Positions 12,645 to 55,017 of a DNA stretch of 64,000 nucleotides are shown here, one piece after another. The position numbers and the translations under genes are program-made. The number at the start of each line of letters is the position of its first letter. Within the stretch, counting starts at the first letter, position 1. Source of the stretch: Eubacteriales bacterium (GTDB taxonomy: Bacteria > Bacillota > Clostridia > Oscillospirales > CAG-272); the NCBI GenBank assembly GCA_045586845.1, contig JAZNBB010000011.1, forward strand, positions 8,023 to 72,022, in the 5' to 3' direction. The notes below the pieces were generated by a model, which ran no database searches, was not told where the DNA came from, and saw nothing but the letters and a program-made list of their open reading frames with translations.

Positions 12645-12740
12645 GGGCGTCGAGGACTGATCGCCCCTACAGTTTTCCGATTTTTGTTGTGCAATATTGG
12701 ATCAAAAACAGTCGTAGGGGCGATCATTGATCGCCCCTAC
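12645..12740. repeat. Two GTAG-family REP-like palindromes
   Basis: GGGCGTCGAGGACTGATCGCCCCTAC (12645-12670) and the perfect palindrome GTAGGGGCGATCA-T-TGATCGCCCCTAC (12714-12740). Confidence 0.75.
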
Positions 12741-31094: not shown

Positions 31095-31096
31095 GA

Positions 31097-31193
31097 GTGA
31101 TATATTTCGCCATGGGCGAAATGTGATATTTTTGCTATCGCAAAAGTGATATTCGCGCTGCGCGCGAGTGATATGTTCCGCCCAAGGCGGAAC
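31097..31193 (+). repeat. Array of 4 units: GTGATAT linker plus variable perfect hairpin
   Basis: GTGATAT at 31097, 31123, 31146, 31168, each followed by a different 6-8 bp perfect stem with a 3-4 nt loop. Confidence 0.9.
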
Positions 31194-31281
31194 GTTGCGG
31201 TAGGAATTTGCCACATGGCAAATTCCAATCCGATTGTATTCTTTCTGAAATCACCACGTGAACCCAATAAGAGGAGCTTTT

Positions 31282-48830: not shown

Positions 48831-48900
48831 GTAGGGGCGATTCAAGAATCGCCCGACAGTGCATATTATCATTCGCGGGCGATTCGTGAATCGCCCCTAC
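48831..48900. repeat. Inverted REP doublet (REPIN-like), GTAG family
   Basis: GTAGGGGCGATTCAAGAATCGCCC, 22-nt spacer, GGGCGATTCGTGAATCGCCCCTAC. Confidence 0.85.
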
Positions 48901-49631: not shown

Positions 49632-50075
49632 TTATTCTACGACGACCACGCCGCCCTCTTTGACGGTCACGCTCATGCCGTCCTTGACGTATGCAAGAAA
49701 TTCATCGCCAAGGCAATCGATAACGGGCATGGTAACGCCCTCTACCCACACGTCGGCAAGCACCGCGCCTGCGGCTGCGAGTGAGTCGATATGGTTTGCA
49801 AACAACATACAGGCAGGTTGCTTGTGCAAAGCACAAGCGCAATACAGTACAAGACCGCCCGTGGTGGAGCCGATGGTCTGCGGCAGGCACAAAGCCTTTC
49901 CAATCATGGGCTTCCCGTGCAGATCTGCATTGTTCTGGTCGCCGCACTTGACCTCTTTGTCACCAAACTGCAACGCCATCTGAAAGGATGCCAGCGTGTT
50001 AAAGCCCTGCGTGGAAACAAGCGCCTCTGCCTTGACCTCACCGGGGGTGACTACTCTACCTTTAAACTCTTTCAT
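49632..50075 (-). CDS. Aconitase X swivel (small) subunit, DUF126
   Basis: 'FKGRVVTPG....EALVS', 'DLHGK...GK.LCLP.TIGST.G'. Confidence 0.85.
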   Translation of the reverse strand: MKEFKGRVVTPGEVKAEALVSTQGFNTLASFQMALQFGDKEVKCGDQNNADLHGKPMIGKALCLPQTIGSTTGGLVLYCACALHKQPACMLFANHIDSLAAAGAVLADVWVEGVTMPVIDCLGDEFLAYVKDGMSVTVKEGGVVVVE

Positions 50076-51349
50076 GCGTTCTTACCTCCCGTAATGATCT
50101 GCAATATCTCCTCGTCTCGATAGTATCTCGAGCTGGTATAGGTGCGCAACTTATTTGACGAGGTGATGACCGGCATCTTCTTGCAAAGCGGATTGTTCAT
50201 GTACATCAAAGGACAAATATACGAGGTGATGACACCCGTTGCCTTGAGTCTTGCGGCGTAATCGGTGGCATTGAACGCCTCCAGCACGCCGGGAGCGGCG
50301 GTCAGCACGGTGGGAATGAGCACCTTCTTTTTGCCGTTGGCGGCAAGTGCGCCTTCAATATTATCAGTCCATGTCTTGAGCTGCTCCAGAGACAGGTGCG
50401 GACAACCCACAAAGCACAGCTTGGGCGTTGCGTCCTCGTTCTTCCACATCACGGGATATTCTCTCTGCACTCTTGTAAGCTCTGCGTCGTCAATGACGTA
50501 CTCACGTGCGCCTTCTGCGATCAATGACTCACCCAACTCAACTGCCTCGGGGGTCAGATTGGCAATGTGGTAAAGTCCGACCGCACCGTTGGATGCAGTT
50601 GCAGCGCCAAAATCCTTGAGGTATGCACAGGTTGCGTCGTTGAGCTCGGTGCCGATCCATTGATCAAGTCCTACGACGTAAGGCACGTCCTCCATGACCT
50701 TCATACCGATGGCAGAGCCAAGCAGCTGCGCCTCGGGCTTTCTTGTGGTCTTGATCTTGACAACCCAGGTAGCCTTTCTGCCCTCGTCGGTCAGCAAGCC
50801 AAAGTAAGGCACGTAACCCACGATAGAGCCCATAATATCAATAATTCCCGAGTTACGGTTGCAGCGAGCCCCCAGCACACTGTTTGCGTACACAACTGCC
50901 GAGGATTCTGCCCAGGACAGCACGTCACCCTTTTTCGGCTTGTTGCCAACCTCATCCATGTAGCAGGTGCAGGTGAACGCTTTGTCGTCCATCAGCCCCA
51001 GCTCATGCAGCTGTTTCTCATAAAAATCCTGCTTGGTATACATGAACTTGTTGAATACAAAATTCTGCAGGAAATTTGCGGGCACGTTCTTATCAATGGG
51101 TCTGGGGTCAACCGAGAATTTCTGCCCCGAGAAAACACCTGCATCCAGCAGCTGCTGCATCAGGTCGTACACGGGGGACATGACCTTCAGACCAAACGAA
51201 GTAACCAAATGGTTATATTCCGAGGTGATGGGCACAAGCTTTTCAGCCTCAAATGCATCACCATACATGACAAGCGTTTTCATGACCTTGGCAAGCGTTT
51301 CGCCCTGCGCACCGTCCAAAATCGCCTGTTGTTCTTTTGTCAGTATCAT
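50072..51349 (-). CDS. Aconitase X catalytic (large) subunit, DUF521
   Basis: 'MILTKEQQAILDG..G', 'FTCTCY', 'WAESSAVVYANSVLGARCNR', 'GCPH', 'TSSNK...Y'. Confidence 0.9.
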   Translation of the reverse strand: MILTKEQQAILDGAQGETLAKVMKTLVMYGDAFEAEKLVPITSEYNHLVTSFGLKVMSPVYDLMQQLLDAGVFSGQKFSVDPRPIDKNVPANFLQNFVFNKFMYTKQDFYEKQLHELGLMDDKAFTCTCYMDEVGNKPKKGDVLSWAESSAVVYANSVLGARCNRNSGIIDIMGSIVGYVPYFGLLTDEGRKATWVVKIKTTRKPEAQLLGSAIGMKVMEDVPYVVGLDQWIGTELNDATCAYLKDFGAATASNGAVGLYHIANLTPEAVELGESLIAEGAREYVIDDAELTRVQREYPVMWKNEDATPKLCFVGCPHLSLEQLKTWTDNIEGALAANGKKKVLIPTVLTAAPGVLEAFNATDYAARLKATGVITSYICPLMYMNNPLCKKMPVITSSNKLRTYTSSRYYRDEEILQIITGGKNA

Positions 51350-51414
51350 AGACAATCATCCTTTCATGAATGAATTTCAATTCAATTGATTGCAGTGCGG
51401 AGAAAATCCACCTC

Positions 51415-51507
51415 ATTACTCGCGCAAAGCGCGAATATCACTGCGGCTCTGCCGCAATATCACTTGCGCGCAGCGCAAATATCACTCGTGCGAAGCACGA
51501 ATATCTC
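51415..51507 (-). repeat. Array of 4 units with exact 22-nt period: GTGATAT linker plus variable 6-bp hairpin
   Basis: Plus strand ATATCAC at 51435, 51457, 51479 and ATATCTC at 51501, separating TCGCGC/GCGCGA, TGCGGC/GCCGCA, TTGCGC/GCGCAA, TCGTGC/GCACGA. Confidence 0.92.
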
Positions 51508-51521
51508 TGCAATGAAGCTGT

Positions 51522-53588
51522 TTACAGCTTCATTGCCACATCCCACGCACCCCAAATGACAGTGCGCAGATTGCCCACAGCCTTGGCATCACCGATCACG
51601 TGTACGCCCTTGGTGGTCAGCGGTGCGGGATTGTAACCGACAGACAAAACGACCGAATCCGCATCGATCTGCTCAGTCGCGCCGTCCTTGCGCTTGATTA
51701 CGACGCCCTGCTCGTTGATCTCAGACACACCGGTTTCCAGGAACACGGGGACTTCGTTTGCCTTAAAGTAGTCGCGCAGATAGCTTGTGTTTGCCAGACA
51801 AATGCCCTTGGTGGTGATCAGATCGTCCTGCATTTCCACAATGATCGGCATTTTGCCCTGCAGGCACAGCTCATATGCGATCTCGCAACCGGTCAGGCCG
51901 CCACCGATTACGACCACCTTGTTGCCAACCGTTTTGTTTCCAAGCAGGAAGTCAACAGCCTCGATCGAACGCTCTACACCGGGAATCGGGATGCGCTTAG
52001 CCACGGCACCGGTTGCAACGATGACCTCATCGGCATCCAAAGACTTGACATCCTTGACTTCGGTGTTCATCTTAACCTCAATAGGATGCTTGGCGATCTC
52101 GCGGATATACCACTTGATCAAATCGCGGTCCTTTTCCTTGAAGGAAGGCGCAGCGGCTGCAATAAATACGCCGCCCAGTTTATCGCTCTTTTCGTACAAG
52201 GTGACCTTGTGGCCGCGCTTCGCGCACACGATAGCTGCTTCCATACCGCCAATGCCGCCGCCGATGACAGCGATCTTCTTTTGCTTCTTGGCGGGAACAA
52301 TATGGTATTTTTTAGACTGCATGGTCTCCGGATTGATCGCACAGCGGGAAAGTCCCATGGTGTCGGTCAGATCCTGCGTGTTGGCATGACCCTTGGATGA
52401 GGAGAAATTAAAGCAAGCGTTATGGCAACAGATGCAGGGTTTGATATCCTCCAGTCTGTCCTCGATCAGCTTGGTGATCCACGCGGGATCAGCCAAGAAC
52501 TGGCGAGCTACGCCCATCGCGTCGATCTTGCCCTCGGCTATTGCCGCAGCACCCACGTCGGGTTCCATTCTGCCCGCGCAGACCACGGGAATGTCCACAA
52601 ATTTCTTGATGTGCGCAACGTCCTCAAGGTTGCAGTTTTGAGGCATATACATCGGCGGATGCGCCCAATACCAGGAGTCGTAGGTGCCATTATCTGCGTT
52701 GAGCATATCGTAGCCAGCATCCTGCAGGAACTTTGCCGCCTTTTCGGACTCCTCCATGTTTCTGCCGACCTCTTCGTAGTCCTCTTCGGGCATAGCGCCC
52801 TCGCAAAAGCCCTTCATCTTGGATTCTACCGAGTAACGCAAAGATACGGGATAATCATTACCGCAGGCTTCCTTGATCGCCTTGACGATTTCTGCTGCAA
52901 AACGATAGCGGTTTTCAAAGCTTCCGCCGTAATCGTCGGTACGCTTATTAAAGAATTCGATTGCAAACTGGTCCAGGAGATAGCCCTCGTGTACTGCGTG
53001 TACCTCTACACCGTCTACACCCGCATCGTGGCAAAGCTTTGCGGTCTTGGCAAAAGCTTCGATGATCTCGTGGATCTGCTCTACCGTCATCTCGGGACAA
53101 ATGATGTCATGCGCCCATCTCGACGGCTGGGGGCTGGGACTTGCAAGCTCATGCGAGGTGTCGATCACGGGCTTGATCACGGCACGGGTGAACTTGTTTT
53201 TGTGTAAGGGTGCTATCAGCTCGGTGATCGCCCAGGAACGACCCATGCCTGCGGTCAGCTGAATAAACACCTTGGCACCTGTCTTGTGGATCTCATCCAT
53301 AAATTCCTTAAGATCCTCAAACATCTTGGGGTTCTGGTACAGCCACTTGCCCCAGAAGGTATCACGAATAGGCGCAATACCGGGGATGATCAGGCCGACG
53401 TTGTTGTTTGCGCGCTCCAAAAACAGCTTGGCAGCTTCCTTATCGAAATGGCAGCCGGTCAGTTCAAACCAACCAAACAGCGACGTACCACCCATGGGGC
53501 ACATAACGATGCGGTTTTTGATCTCGACGTTGCCAATCTTCCAAGGCGTAAACAACGCTTGGTACTTGGGATCGGTTTGATTGTTCAT
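51522..53588 (-). CDS. NADH:flavin oxidoreductase / 2-enoate reductase-like (OYE barrel, 4Fe-4S, FAD domains)
   Basis: '[11 protein letters not shown]', '[13 protein letters not shown]', '[16 protein letters not shown]', 'CICCHNAC', two GxGxxG motifs; AGGAG SD before ATG 53588. Confidence 0.9.
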
Positions 53589-53622
53589 AACGCTTCTCCT
53601 ATGTAAAAATTTTTTATTATTC

Positions 53623-55017
53623 TTATTTACCAACGCAGAAATGCGCGAAAATGCCCGCAACCACGTCTTCGGATACGGCTCTGCCGTCCACCTCAGCAAG
53701 TGCCTCTGCCGCCTGCTCGACATCCGAACAGCAAAGGTCGATGGGCAGCCCCATCCTTACAGCCGAGAGTGCCTGCTCCAGACGTTCGGCAGCTAAGATC
53801 AGGGCGGCATGCTGGCGTGCATTTGCCACCACTGCATCGTGGCGCAGATCGATTGCGCCATCAATAAATTGCTGCTCGACTATGCGCACAAGTGCCTCGC
53901 AGCCCTCGCCCGTCATGGCGGACAGGCAGACGACCGCACGCACACACGGTGCAAGTCTTGCTCGCACGGCATCGATCTGCGCAACTGTTGCCGTGTCGGT
54001 CTTATTGATCACACCGATTACGCAGCCGCTATGTTCCGAGAGCTTCTCGAGCAGGTCGTCATCCTCATCTGTCAGTTCCGCACACGCATCAAACACAGCA
54101 AGCACCAGTTCTGCGCTCTCCAGATATTCCAAGGCGCGTTGAATGCCAATCTGCTCCACGTAATCGTCCGACCGGCGCAACCCCGCCGTATCGTGCAAGC
54201 GCACCGTCACGCGTCCGATGGCTGCCGTTTGGCTCAGCACGTCACGCGTCGTTCCCGCAATATCGGTCACGATCGCCGCTTCCCTGCCCACTATGTGGTT
54301 ATAAAGCGAGCTTTTCCCGCCGTTTGCCTTGCCCACGATGACCGTAGGAATGCCCTCGGCAACCGCGTGTCCCGTGCGGTAGGTATCAGCAAGCGTCTTT
54401 GTCTTGTCAAGCGACTTGGTCAGCTGTGCTTGTATCTGCTCGCGGCTCATGTCCGCAAGATCCTCGTCAGGATAGTCAATGACTGCAAAAATGCTGGAAA
54501 GCACTAAGCAAAGCCCCTCGTATATTTCGTTGGTTTTTTTACTCAGTCCTCCACGCATCCCTGCGCCCGAGAGCAGCATCTGCTCGCGCGTGCCCGCTTC
54601 CAGAAGATTTCCCAGCGCCTCGGCAGCCGAAAGCCCCAGCTTTCCGTTGATAAACGCGCGCTTGGTAAACTCACCTGCCTCGGCAGGTCTCGCGCCGGCC
54701 GCCAAAAGACAGGTCAGCACGGTCTGCGTGACCAGAATGCCGCCGTGACAGGTGATCTCCACGGTATCCTCGCCCGTAAACGAATGCGGTGCGCGGAACA
54801 CCACCGCCATGCCGTCATCCACCTGCGTGCCGTCGGCAGCGTCAATGATGCGCCCGTAGGTCATATAATTGGCACCCACGTCCCCCAAAGCCTTGCCGCT
54901 TACGGGAAAGAATACGCGCTCGGCAATCTCCACGGCTCTCTCGCCGCTGACGCGCAAAAGCGCAACCCCACCCTTGCCGTACGGGGTGCTTACGGCAGCA
55001 ATGGTATCCGTAATCAT
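53623..55017 (-). CDS. mnmE: tRNA modification GTPase
   Basis: '[18 protein letters not shown]', '[15 protein letters not shown]', 'GTTRD', 'DTAG', 'NKTD', 'FCVGK'. Confidence 0.96.

What the first reader, a model, noticed from the sequence alone, without database searches (positions are those of the whole stretch)
51389..51513. Second GTGATAT-hairpin array with exact 22-nt period, sense to its transcript
Seen on the minus strand, 14 nt after the reductase stop: GAGATAT-[TCGTGC ttc GCACGA]-GTGATAT-[TTGCGC tgc GCGCAA]-GTGATAT-[TGCGGC aga GCCGCA]-GTGATAT-[TCGCGC ttt GCGCGA]-GTAAT. All four 6-bp stems differ yet pair perfectly. A 7-bp inverted repeat (ATTGCAG 51389, CTGCAAT 51507) brackets it. 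It shares linker, four-unit size, orientation and post-stop intra-operon position with the proA array 20 kb away, but is not a linear copy. Inference: a dispersed modular element family and the best candidate for an undescribed system in this window.
Basis: partly seen in the sequence, partly recalled or inferred. Interest (0 to 1): 0.8.

Follow-up and report, generated by a model that had tools for sequence, protein, structure and literature searches.

The report
Gut-1 hairpin repeat, a dispersed element
The hairpin array after the reductase gene is one copy of the already catalogued Gut-1 RNA motif, which in this gut bacterium and its relatives behaves as a many-copy repeat that comes and goes between genes rather than as a single special gene.

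Summary
On the minus strand, 14 nt after the reductase stop, four 6-bp/3-nt hairpins are separated by GAGATAT/GTGATAT at an exact 22-nt period. It is not undescribed: Rfam's Gut-1 model (RF01706) scores it 53.6 bits against a cut-off of 50, and the proA array scores 44.2. The function of Gut-1 is unknown in the papers searched.

New here: Gut-1 is a high-copy modular intergenic repeat. I found 51 arrays in this 2.16-Mb draft against 3-11 for permuted linkers. Matches occur in 15/15 congeners and 31/41 relatives, but only 2/150 other genomes of the phylum. Orthologous sites are filled or empty: 6 empty at proA, and 46 short against 12 filled at the reductase site, needing at least 7 changes on the tree. 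Orientation to genes is unbiased, 10 sense against 8 antisense.

Stems covary almost only through Watson-Crick pairs and loops are hypervariable. No Y1/RAYT gene is linked.

One odd feature: the first hairpin is built from the reductase gene's own 3' end plus a lineage-matched inverted copy.

The parts
51522..53723 (-). Upstream gene: 733-aa NADH:flavin oxidoreductase + pyridine-nucleotide-disulphide oxidoreductase (2,4-dienoyl-CoA-reductase-like). Its last 13 nt form the 5' arm of hairpin H0.
   Evidence: ORF; Pfam PF00724 2.7e-55 and PF07992 5e-40
51509..51536 (-). Hairpin H0: GCAATGAAGCTGT-aa-ACAGCTTCATTGC, 13 bp, spanning the stop codon. The 5' arm is coding sequence; the 3' arm (51521-51509) exists only in array-bearing alleles.
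51420..51507 (-). Four linker+hairpin units (linkers at 51507-51501, 51485-51479, 51463-51457, 51441-51435; 6-bp stems, 3-nt loops, period 22). The Rfam Gut-1 hit covers 51430-51509.
51379..51419 (-). Degenerate 3' module: GTAATGAGGTGG (counterpart of GTTGCGGTAG in relatives), the 5' arm of the terminal AT-rich hairpin (ATTTTCTCCGC) with its 3' arm lost, and the conserved tail CAATTGAATTG.
   Evidence: Comparison with L007, L009, L004 and L008
50072..51349 (-). Downstream gene AcnX (aconitase X large subunit). The start is taken at ATG 51349, which follows a GAAAGGA ribosome-binding site.
   Evidence: Pfam PF04412 3.2e-91
31095..31225 (+). Second copy of the family, after the proA stop: four GTGATAT units, GTTGCGGTAG (31194-31203) and a complete terminal hairpin GAATTTGCC-acat-GGCAAATTC (31204-31225). 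There is no H0.
   Evidence: (Gut-1 44.2 bits)

Best explanation
The array is one copy of the Gut-1 family (Rfam RF01706). In this genus Gut-1 is a non-coding, non-autonomous, modular DNA repeat comparable in lifestyle to REP/BIME or pneumococcal BOX elements.

A full element has three parts:
- An optional 5' hairpin (H0).
- One to five units of [GTGAWAT linker + short perfect hairpin].
- A 3' module: a GTTYCGC..GCGRAAC hairpin, then GTTGCGGTAG, then an AT-rich terminal hairpin.

Shown:
- Copies are gained and lost at orthologous intergenic sites.
- They sit in both orientations relative to genes and to GC skew.
- They exist as sequence subfamilies of 75-92% identity.
- They often occur as convergent pairs.

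Inferred: the constraint that keeps stems perfect and linkers constant acts mainly on DNA. Either hairpins extrude in single-stranded DNA and are recognised together with the linker by an unidentified trans-acting enzyme, or they are made by templated fold-back copying. Pairing is kept almost only by Watson-Crick pairs, loops are free, and at this locus the first hairpin's distal arm is an inverted copy of the local gene end.

At this site the element lies between two co-directional genes with no promoter-like or terminator-like signal of its own. It is therefore presumably co-transcribed. Any effect, such as a 3'-exonuclease barrier after the reductase cistron or loosened coupling to AcnX, would be a by-product and not a dedicated system.
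For: Family membership:
- cmscan gives 53.6 bits against the gathering score of 50, E 4e-10 on the 321-nt stretch.

Copy number:
- Exact linker followed by a hairpin occurs 107 times against 5-24 for five permuted linkers.
- 51 arrays against 3-11 in four controls; arrays with two or more flanked hairpins, 18 against 0.
- 34 Gut-1 CM hits in G000 with only 150 of 189 candidates scored.
- Many hits in relatives lie at contig ends.

Distribution:
- 15/15 congeners, 22/24 genomes of the family, 31/41 relatives including G000.
- 2/150 other genomes of the phylum.

Insertion polymorphism:
- proA site: 6 congeners have 11-12 nt between the stop and the next ATG, 6 carry a 155-189-nt element, and 1 carries a 133-nt short form.
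- Reductase site in 80 related loci: 46 short, 11 Gut-1 (12 with the window), 12 other repeats, 11 without AcnX.
- On the reductase tree the Gut-1 state needs 9 changes, at least 7 of them forced by well-supported branches.
- Unit number differs at orthologous sites: 1 unit in G000 against 4 in congeners at two loci. One G000 site holds only H0 plus one linker, exactly where a congener has the whole element.

Orientation:
- 45 of 51 arrays are intergenic, leaving 43 after merging.
- 10 of 10 neighbouring pairs are convergent.
- Unpaired arrays between co-directional genes: 10 sense, 8 antisense.
- 15 arrays lie on the G-rich strand and 19 on the C-rich strand.

Structure:
- In 52 copies, 95.9% of 1888 cells are paired.
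- 21 of 37 pairs show double-sided changes: 105 cells against 19.2 in shuffles, with 0/500 shuffles as high. Only 7 cells show a one-sided (wobble) change.
- Majority-base frequency is 0.92 in stems, 0.86 in linkers and other unpaired columns, and 0.49 in loops.

H0:
- A Watson-Crick stem of 10 bp or more spans the stop in 9/12 filled loci, 0/46 short, 1/12 other and 0/11 without AcnX.
- The distal arm best matches its own lineage's gene end in 7 of 12, for example L021 GCAACAAAGATC/GATCTTTGTTGC, while its near-identical sisters L029 and L036 are empty.

Local signals:
- No promoter-like or terminator-like site lies in the array.
Against: - No mobilising enzyme was identified. Y1_Tnp genes are not flanked by arrays, and several array-rich genomes lack any Y1_Tnp match, for example G027 (98% complete, 34 hits).
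- No terminal inverted repeats and no clear target-site duplication were seen.
- No copy was found on phage or plasmid records.
- Strong conservation of stems and six of seven linker positions across families of an order could equally reflect selection for an RNA or protein-binding function.
- All 12 arrays at the reductase site are sense-oriented and at the same position. This could reflect selection for a function in this operon and not targeted insertion.
- No expression data were obtainable.

Caveats on the counts:
- Gene calls for the orientation counts come from my own rough ORF/codon-usage caller.
- G000 is 75.6% complete, and repeats are under-assembled.
- The 52 aligned copies were picked by BLAST similarity to one element and include orthologous sets, so they are not independent.
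Confidence: 0.62

Rival explanations
1. Functional cis-acting RNA. The array is kept in operon mRNAs because the transcribed hairpins do something useful. They might protect the upstream cistron from 3'-5' decay, set processing sites, uncouple translation of neighbouring genes, or display GUGAUAU single strands to an RNA-binding protein.
For: - The stretch folds far better than shuffles as RNA (z -5.4), with stems extended to 9 bp by the linker edges, leaving about 3 nt between helices.
- Strong covariation and a conserved linker.
- Recurrent presence at the same operon junction, always sense (12 of 12).
- H0 sequesters the stop-codon region.
- Weinberg et al. 2010 rated Gut-1 a likely RNA (table read).
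Against: - About half of unpaired copies between co-directional genes are antisense (8 of 18). There the transcript would carry AUAUCAC, not GUGAUAU.
- Wobble pairs are nearly absent, which is unusual for RNA-selected helices.
- Close relatives do without the array at the same junctions.
- Unrelated palindromic repeats occupy the same junction in 12 other loci.
Confidence: 0.2
2. Enzyme-free origin. The arrays spread and grow by replication errors. Stable hairpins stall forks, and nascent strands switch template or fold back. This copies arrays to new sites and creates junctional inverted duplications such as H0.
For: - The distal arm of H0 is an inverted copy of the lineage's own gene end.
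- Stems are perfect and Watson-Crick only, with free loops.
- No linked transposase, no inverted terminal repeats and no target duplication were seen.
Against: - Element ends are precise and the same in independent insertions. Elements start at (C/G)A(G/A)TGAWAT and end after the terminal hairpin.
- One site shows exact absence of everything 3' of the first linker.
- Tens of copies per genome and a narrow taxonomic range fit a specific machinery better than generic replication errors.
Confidence: 0.1
3. Double-stranded DNA binding array. GTGATAT repeated every 22 bp (two helical turns) would be an iteron- or centromere-like site for a DNA-binding protein. From memory only, the heptad WATCACW bound by the omega repressor of inc18 plasmids resembles the T-type linker read on the other strand.
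For: - The 22-bp phasing in this copy.
- The linker is conserved at six of seven positions.
Against: - Spacing varies from 19 to 26 nt among arrays.
- Double-stranded binding does not explain the covarying palindromes.
- The A-type linker GTGAAAT does not fit the recalled heptad.
- The resemblance to the omega heptad is recalled and was not tested.
Confidence: 0.04
4. Stand-alone trans-acting small RNA gene, which is the original filing of Gut-1 as a noncoding RNA unaffiliated with mRNAs.
For: Classification in Weinberg et al. 2010 (passages read); Rfam type 'Gene; sRNA'.
Against: - This copy lies 14 nt after one stop codon and about 30 nt before the next ribosome-binding site, with no promoter-like or terminator-like site.
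- There are tens of diverged copies per genome, in both orientations.
Confidence: 0.03

Closest known systems
Gut-1 RNA motif (Rfam RF01706; Weinberg et al. 2010, Genome Biol 11:R31)
   Same: Consecutive short hairpins joined by a conserved GUGAAAU-type linker. The covariance model scores this array above its curated threshold. The sources are gut-derived. The function is unknown.
   Different: - The linker here is GUGAUAU. Both types coexist in every genome of the genus.
- The natural element is longer than the 77-nt model, with H0, up to five units and a 3' module.
- Here it is a high-copy, insertion-polymorphic repeat embedded in operons, whereas the paper's table lists it as not cis-regulatory and 'human gut only'.
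REP/BIME elements and REPINs with their RAYT (Y1/HUH) transposases (recalled from the literature)
   Same: Short intergenic palindromes with a conserved single-stranded head next to the stem; tens to hundreds of copies; frequent inverted (convergent) pairs; co-transcription with operons; hairpins plausibly recognised as single-stranded DNA.
   Different: - Units here are tandem and in the same orientation, with a 7-nt linker and many different stems.
- No Y1 gene is flanked by arrays, and Y1 presence does not track copy number.
- A separate classical GTAG-headed palindrome family, GTAGGGGCGA.., coexists in the genome.
BOX elements of Streptococcus pneumoniae (boxA-boxB(n)-boxC; recalled)
   Same: Modular architecture with distinct 5' and 3' modules and a variable number of middle modules. 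They are intergenic, co-transcribed, predicted to fold stably, and have no known own transposase.
   Different: The sequence is unrelated. The middle unit is 20-26 nt here against about 45 nt, and the host lineage differs. Membership was not testable because no model was available.

Membership tests
Rfam RF01706 Gut-1 | Covariance-model score at or above the curated gathering score (50 bits) | tested here: met
   53.6 bits over model positions 1-77 at window 51430-51509 (-). The proA copy scores 44.2 bits, below the cut-off.
Rfam RF01706 Gut-1 | Three successive hairpins separated by a conserved GUGAAAU linker | tested here: met
   The alignment to the model shows all three helices paired. The linker is GUGAUAU, a U for A at position 5. 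GTGAAAT arrays also occur in the same genome.
Rfam RF01706 Gut-1 | Independent noncoding RNA not affiliated with an mRNA, as filed in 2010 | tested here: not met
   The array lies between two co-directional genes, 14 nt after a stop codon, with no promoter-like or terminator-like site. Transcription itself could not be tested.
REP/REPIN-RAYT system | High-copy intergenic palindromes with a conserved head sequence | tested here: met
   51 arrays against 3-11 in controls, and 45 of 51 are intergenic.
REP/REPIN-RAYT system | A Y1/HUH (RAYT) gene flanked by the repeats and co-distributed with them | tested here: not met
   - The only clear Y1_Tnp gene of G000 has no flanking arrays.
- Its homologues were found in 10 of 41 genomes, G000 included.
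- Any PF01797 match was found in 22 of 41 genomes, absent from several array-rich ones.
- 12 IS200-type loci in relatives show no periodic linker runs.
MITE (miniature inverted-repeat transposable element) | Terminal inverted repeats and a direct target-site duplication | tested here: not met
   The two ends of the element differ (linker+hairpin against AT-rich terminal hairpin). Filled and empty proA alleles show no duplication longer than about 3 nt.
CRISPR array | Repeats of about 23-50 nt with unique spacers, plus cas genes | tested here: not met
   The constant part is 7 nt and the variable part is a 13-19-nt palindrome. Arrays have 5 units or fewer and occur at more than 40 sites. cas genes were not searched for.
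Intrinsic terminator | GC-rich hairpin followed by a T-run | tested here: not met
   The scan finds no terminator-like site inside 51379-51536.

The most novel reading that the evidence does not exclude
Gut-1 arrays are the footprint of an undescribed kind of bacterial mobile element with no inverted terminal repeats, no direct target duplication and no Y1 partner. An unknown machinery would recognise 'hairpin + GTGAWAT' in single-stranded DNA and cut exactly 3' of a linker. It would add units or whole elements there. At some insertions it would write an inverted copy of the target's own flank as a new first hairpin. That would explain four things: the perfect Watson-Crick-only stems, the free loops, the unit-number polymorphism, and the lineage-matched stop-codon hairpins.
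Probability: 0.15. Interest if true: 0.75.

Novelty: new member of a known kind. Interest (0 to 1): 0.4.

Why it matters
Gut-1 has sat in Rfam since 2010 as an orphan 'human gut only' RNA motif. In the papers I could search it has no assigned organism and no assigned function. This window places it in an order of gut Clostridia. It also shows that Gut-1 is a high-copy repeat that is gained and lost between genes, which changes the experiment one would design: mobility and DNA-hairpin recognition, not small-RNA target hunting.

It also matters for annotation. Hits to RF01706 in these genomes should not be read as sRNA genes, and these repeats break assemblies.

The lineage-matched inverted copy of the gene end at the 5' junction is the one feature that could point to an unfamiliar insertion mechanism.

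Tried and rejected
- RNA evidence. The look-up of sequencing runs listed no RNA holder of the stretch.
- Read laying on four DNA contig sets. This gave a mix of related organisms. One contig joins 51340 to 51521 with 21 other letters, an empty-site-like relative. Nothing there bears on expression.
- RAYT hypothesis. Rejected.
- Omega-repressor lead. PF07764 was not found in G000, but the control rang nowhere, so the search is uninformative.
- Phage or plasmid carriage. blastn of the proA element gave no match in either collection.
- Genome-wide concerted evolution of the linker. Rejected. T-type and A-type arrays coexist in all 16 genomes of the genus; for example, adjacent-linker pairs number 54/3 in G000, 92/61 in G009 and 4/12 in G006. 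Mixed arrays also exist, such as TTTA in 6 of 52.
- Replication-strand bias. None: 15 against 19.
- H0 as a general rule. Only partly true. Perfect stems of 8 bp or more abut the 5' end in 12 of 53 proA-type copies, against 1 of 53 at a shifted control. At 6 bp or more the difference vanishes (18 against 13). The proA copy has none. In one case both arms are missing from the empty allele (L135 against G000), and in another the hairpin pre-exists in the empty allele (L142).
- Supplementary files of Weinberg 2010, which hold the text on Gut-1, were not available.
- Literature searches for later work on Gut-1, for RF01706, and for REP elements in Oscillospiraceae found only the 2010 paper and a 2026 structure-prediction benchmark.

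Full report
**Observation**

The stop codon of a 733-aa flavin/pyridine-nucleotide oxidoreductase lies at 51524-51522. After 14 nt come four units of a 7-nt linker (GAGATAT once, GTGATAT three times), each followed by a perfect 6-bp stem with a 3-nt loop. Linker starts are exactly 22 nt apart. The AcnX gene follows, about 70 nt further on.

Tandem Repeats Finder reports the array with period 22 and score 75. The pattern linker-N15-linker occurs 4 times in the window against 0.01 expected. The stretch folds far better than shuffled versions, z -5.4 as RNA and -6.3 as DNA.

The last 13 nt of the reductase reading frame, GCAATGAAGCTGT, pair perfectly with ACAGCTTCATTGC just downstream, enclosing the stop codon. 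The GTAAT... tail is the damaged 3' module of a larger element.

**Identity**

Rfam's covariance model for the Gut-1 RNA motif (RF01706) matches 51430-51509 on the minus strand at 53.6 bits against a gathering score of 50. It matches the proA array at 31095-31179 at 44.2 bits.

Gut-1 was published by Weinberg et al. (2010, PMC2864571). I read three passages of that paper. Its table lists Gut-1 as a likely RNA, not cis-regulatory, and 'human gut only'. The text says it was found only in environmental sequences.

In the searchable library Gut-1 or RF01706 appears otherwise only as a benchmark example in a 2026 structure-prediction paper. A search for REP elements in Oscillospiraceae found nothing. 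The 2010 supplements, which hold the discussion of Gut-1, were closed.

The function is still open.

**A high-copy family**

The draft genome that holds the window has 2.16 Mb in 109 contigs and is 75.6% complete. Counts in it:
- The Rfam model finds 34 matches at E <= 1, with only 150 of 189 candidates scored. The window's own best hit is not among them, so the list is incomplete.
- Exact GTGATAT followed by a hairpin of 5 bp or more occurs 107 times, against 5-24 for five permuted linkers.
- Chains of two or more linkers enclosing hairpins give 51 arrays, against 3-11 in four controls. Arrays with two or more enclosed hairpins number 18 against 0.

Across genomes:
- Matches at E <= 0.001 occur in 15 of 15 congeners, 22 of 24 genomes of the family, and 31 of 41 relatives counting G000. 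There are typically 20-70 per genome, many at contig ends.
- Only 2 of 150 other, evenly sampled genomes of the phylum have any match.
- Titles of orthologous loci place the lineage among uncultured gut Clostridia (Eubacteriales, Oscillospiraceae or Acutalibacteraceae MAGs).

**Context and orientation**

These counts rest on my own rough ORF and codon-usage gene calls.
- 45 of 51 arrays are intergenic. The other 6 are about what the controls predict by chance.
- After merging there are 43 arrays. Twenty of them form 10 neighbouring pairs, and all 10 pairs are convergent.
- Of the 23 unpaired arrays, 10 are sense and 8 antisense between co-directional genes.
- There is no bias to the G-rich or C-rich strand: 15 against 19.

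'Sense to its transcript' is thus true of this copy but not of the family.

**Gain and loss at the proA site**

Among the 15 congeners:
- Six have 11-12 nt between the stop and the next start codon.
- Five have an element of 155-185 nt; G000's own copy is 189 nt, which makes six filled sites. Two of the five congeners carry GTGATAT linkers, as G000 does, and three carry GTGAAAT. The order of hairpins is the same in both types.
- One has a 133-nt short form with one unit.
- Three are cut by contig ends.

The same element, about 135-150 nt long, gives well over 150 BLAST matches at 71-97% identity across the 16 genomes.

**Gain and loss at the reductase site**

I fetched 80 related loci:
- 46 have a short spacer of 12-75 nt.
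- 11 carry Gut-1 arrays, all sense and all at the same position.
- 12 carry other sequence, mostly other palindromic repeats.
- 11 lack AcnX downstream.

On a maximum-likelihood tree of the reductase, the Gut-1 state needs 9 changes. At least 7 of them are forced by branches with SH-aLRT support of 95 or more. Filled L021, for example, sits beside empty L029 and L036 at 0.01-0.04 substitutions per site.

In about 560 kb of these loci my array finder found 16 chains. Fourteen are at this one junction, in 11 loci. The junction is therefore a hot spot, either for insertion or for retention.

**Unit-level change**

At two orthologous loci G000 has one unit where congeners have four. At another, G000 has only a 5' hairpin plus one linker, followed directly by the downstream flank, where a congener has the entire element. 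That is what a cut exactly 3' of a linker would leave. It is a single case.

**Nature of the constraint**

I aligned 52 proA-type copies and counted pairs in the five helices:
- 95.9% of 1888 cells are standard pairs.
- 21 of 37 pairs show changes on both sides. That is 105 cells against 19.2 in shuffles; no shuffle of 500 reached it, and slid controls gave 4-12.
- Only 7 cells show a one-sided (wobble) change.

By column class, the majority-base frequency is 0.92 in stems, 0.86 in linkers and other unpaired columns, and 0.49 in loops. Six of seven linker positions are at least 94% conserved in the three internal linkers, and the fifth is A or T.

Near-absence of G-U pairs together with free loops fits pairing that must hold in DNA, or stems that are made by templated copying. 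It fits less well with an RNA helix under selection. This is an inference. The copies were chosen by similarity and include orthologous sets.

**The first hairpin**

At the reductase site a Watson-Crick stem of 10 bp or more spans the stop codon in 9 of 12 filled loci. It does so in 0 of 46 short loci, 1 of 12 'other' loci (L056, which carries a different array) and 0 of 11 without AcnX.

The proximal arm is the gene's own end, which is also present in empty alleles. The distal arm exists only in filled alleles and follows lineage-specific differences, including the choice of stop codon:
- Window: GCAATGAAGCTGT/ACAGCTTCATTGC.
- L006: ..GAAACTCTG/TAGAGTTTC..
- L016: 15 bp through TTTAAT.
- L021: GCAACAAAGATC/GATCTTTGTTGC.

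In 7 of 12 loci the own partner is the best among all 12. The distal arm was therefore templated on the local sequence, either at insertion or afterwards.

Similar stop-spanning hairpins occur at other loci: L118, L133/L152, L114, L125-group. Many copies carry a 5' hairpin with a GCAATG...CATTGC foot, which the reductase gene end happens to supply as Ala-Met codons.

The rule is not general. The proA copy has no such hairpin. In one case both arms are missing from the empty allele, and in another the hairpin pre-exists in the empty allele as a terminator-like stem.

**Search for a partner**

- The only clear Y1/HUH transposase gene of G000 (PF01797, 68.6 bits) has no arrays beside it.
- Its homologues occur in 10 of 41 genomes, G000 included.
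- Any PF01797 match occurs in 22 of 41. Several array-rich, nearly complete genomes lack one, and one array-free genome has a strong one.
- Twelve IS200-type loci in relatives show no periodic linkers.
- No copy of the element was found in phage or plasmid collections.

The element has no inverted termini and no evident target duplication.

**Conclusion**

The array is a genuine, non-random structure. It is a member of the published Gut-1 family carrying the GUGAUAU linker variant. The best-supported reading is a REP/BIME- or BOX-like modular repeat that is gained and lost in intergenic DNA. It is presumably co-transcribed here as a passenger in the reductase-AcnX operon.

What mobilises it, and whether its RNA does anything, remain unknown. 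The locally templated first hairpin and the linker-exact boundary are the features worth following up.

Noticed in passing
window 6209, 12670-12740, 34490, 48831-48900; 73 sites in G000: A second repeat family of the classical REP type: GTAGGGGCGA(T/C).. followed by a GC-rich palindrome, often as inverted pairs. The 9-mer GTAGGGGCG occurs 73 times in the genome against 6-19 for four permuted controls. The same family occupies the reductase-AcnX junction in L003 and L005 and lies next to Gut-1 elements in several congeners.
   Followed up: partly
L010, L017, L019, L023, L030, L075, L049 (reductase-AcnX junction): A third repeat type, with a ..CTTTTTGAAAAAG.. hairpin and CCCAAAACTTTA nearby, sits at the same junction in other relatives. 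Three unrelated palindromic repeat families therefore use this one intergenic site.
   Followed up: no
G000 contigs C2, C26, C36, C41, C42, C72, C78, C89 (two), C92: Ten neighbouring pairs of Gut-1 arrays, all convergent (+ then -), 28-120 nt apart, often sharing a central hairpin (TTCGCC..GCGAA). They look like composite elements.
   Followed up: partly
G000:C70:44510-44554: A 'solo' form. It is a GCAATG-footed hairpin plus one AGTGATAT linker, followed at once by the downstream flank, where congeners L122 and L141 carry a whole four-unit element. L041 at the reductase site looks similar.
   Followed up: partly
G000:C91:21382-22128 (L001 1465-2211): A 249-aa protein with a Y1_Tnp domain (68.6 bits) and a long C-terminal extension. 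It is single-copy, present in 10 of 41 genomes searched (G000 included), and not linked to either repeat family in its flanks.
   Followed up: partly
window 49632-53723 (-): Operon-like row: a dienoyl-CoA-reductase-like flavoenzyme, the AcnX large subunit and an AcnX swivel-domain protein. The last two overlap by 4 nt. This gene pair is conserved next to the reductase in 69 of 80 related loci.
   Followed up: no
L056 (reductase-AcnX junction): A 13-bp stop-spanning hairpin built from that lineage's own gene end (TGAAATTGTAAGC/GCTTACAATTTCA). It is followed by GTGGCTAGTGACTAGC.. and not by a Gut-1 array. This may be a related element type following the same junction rule.
   Followed up: no
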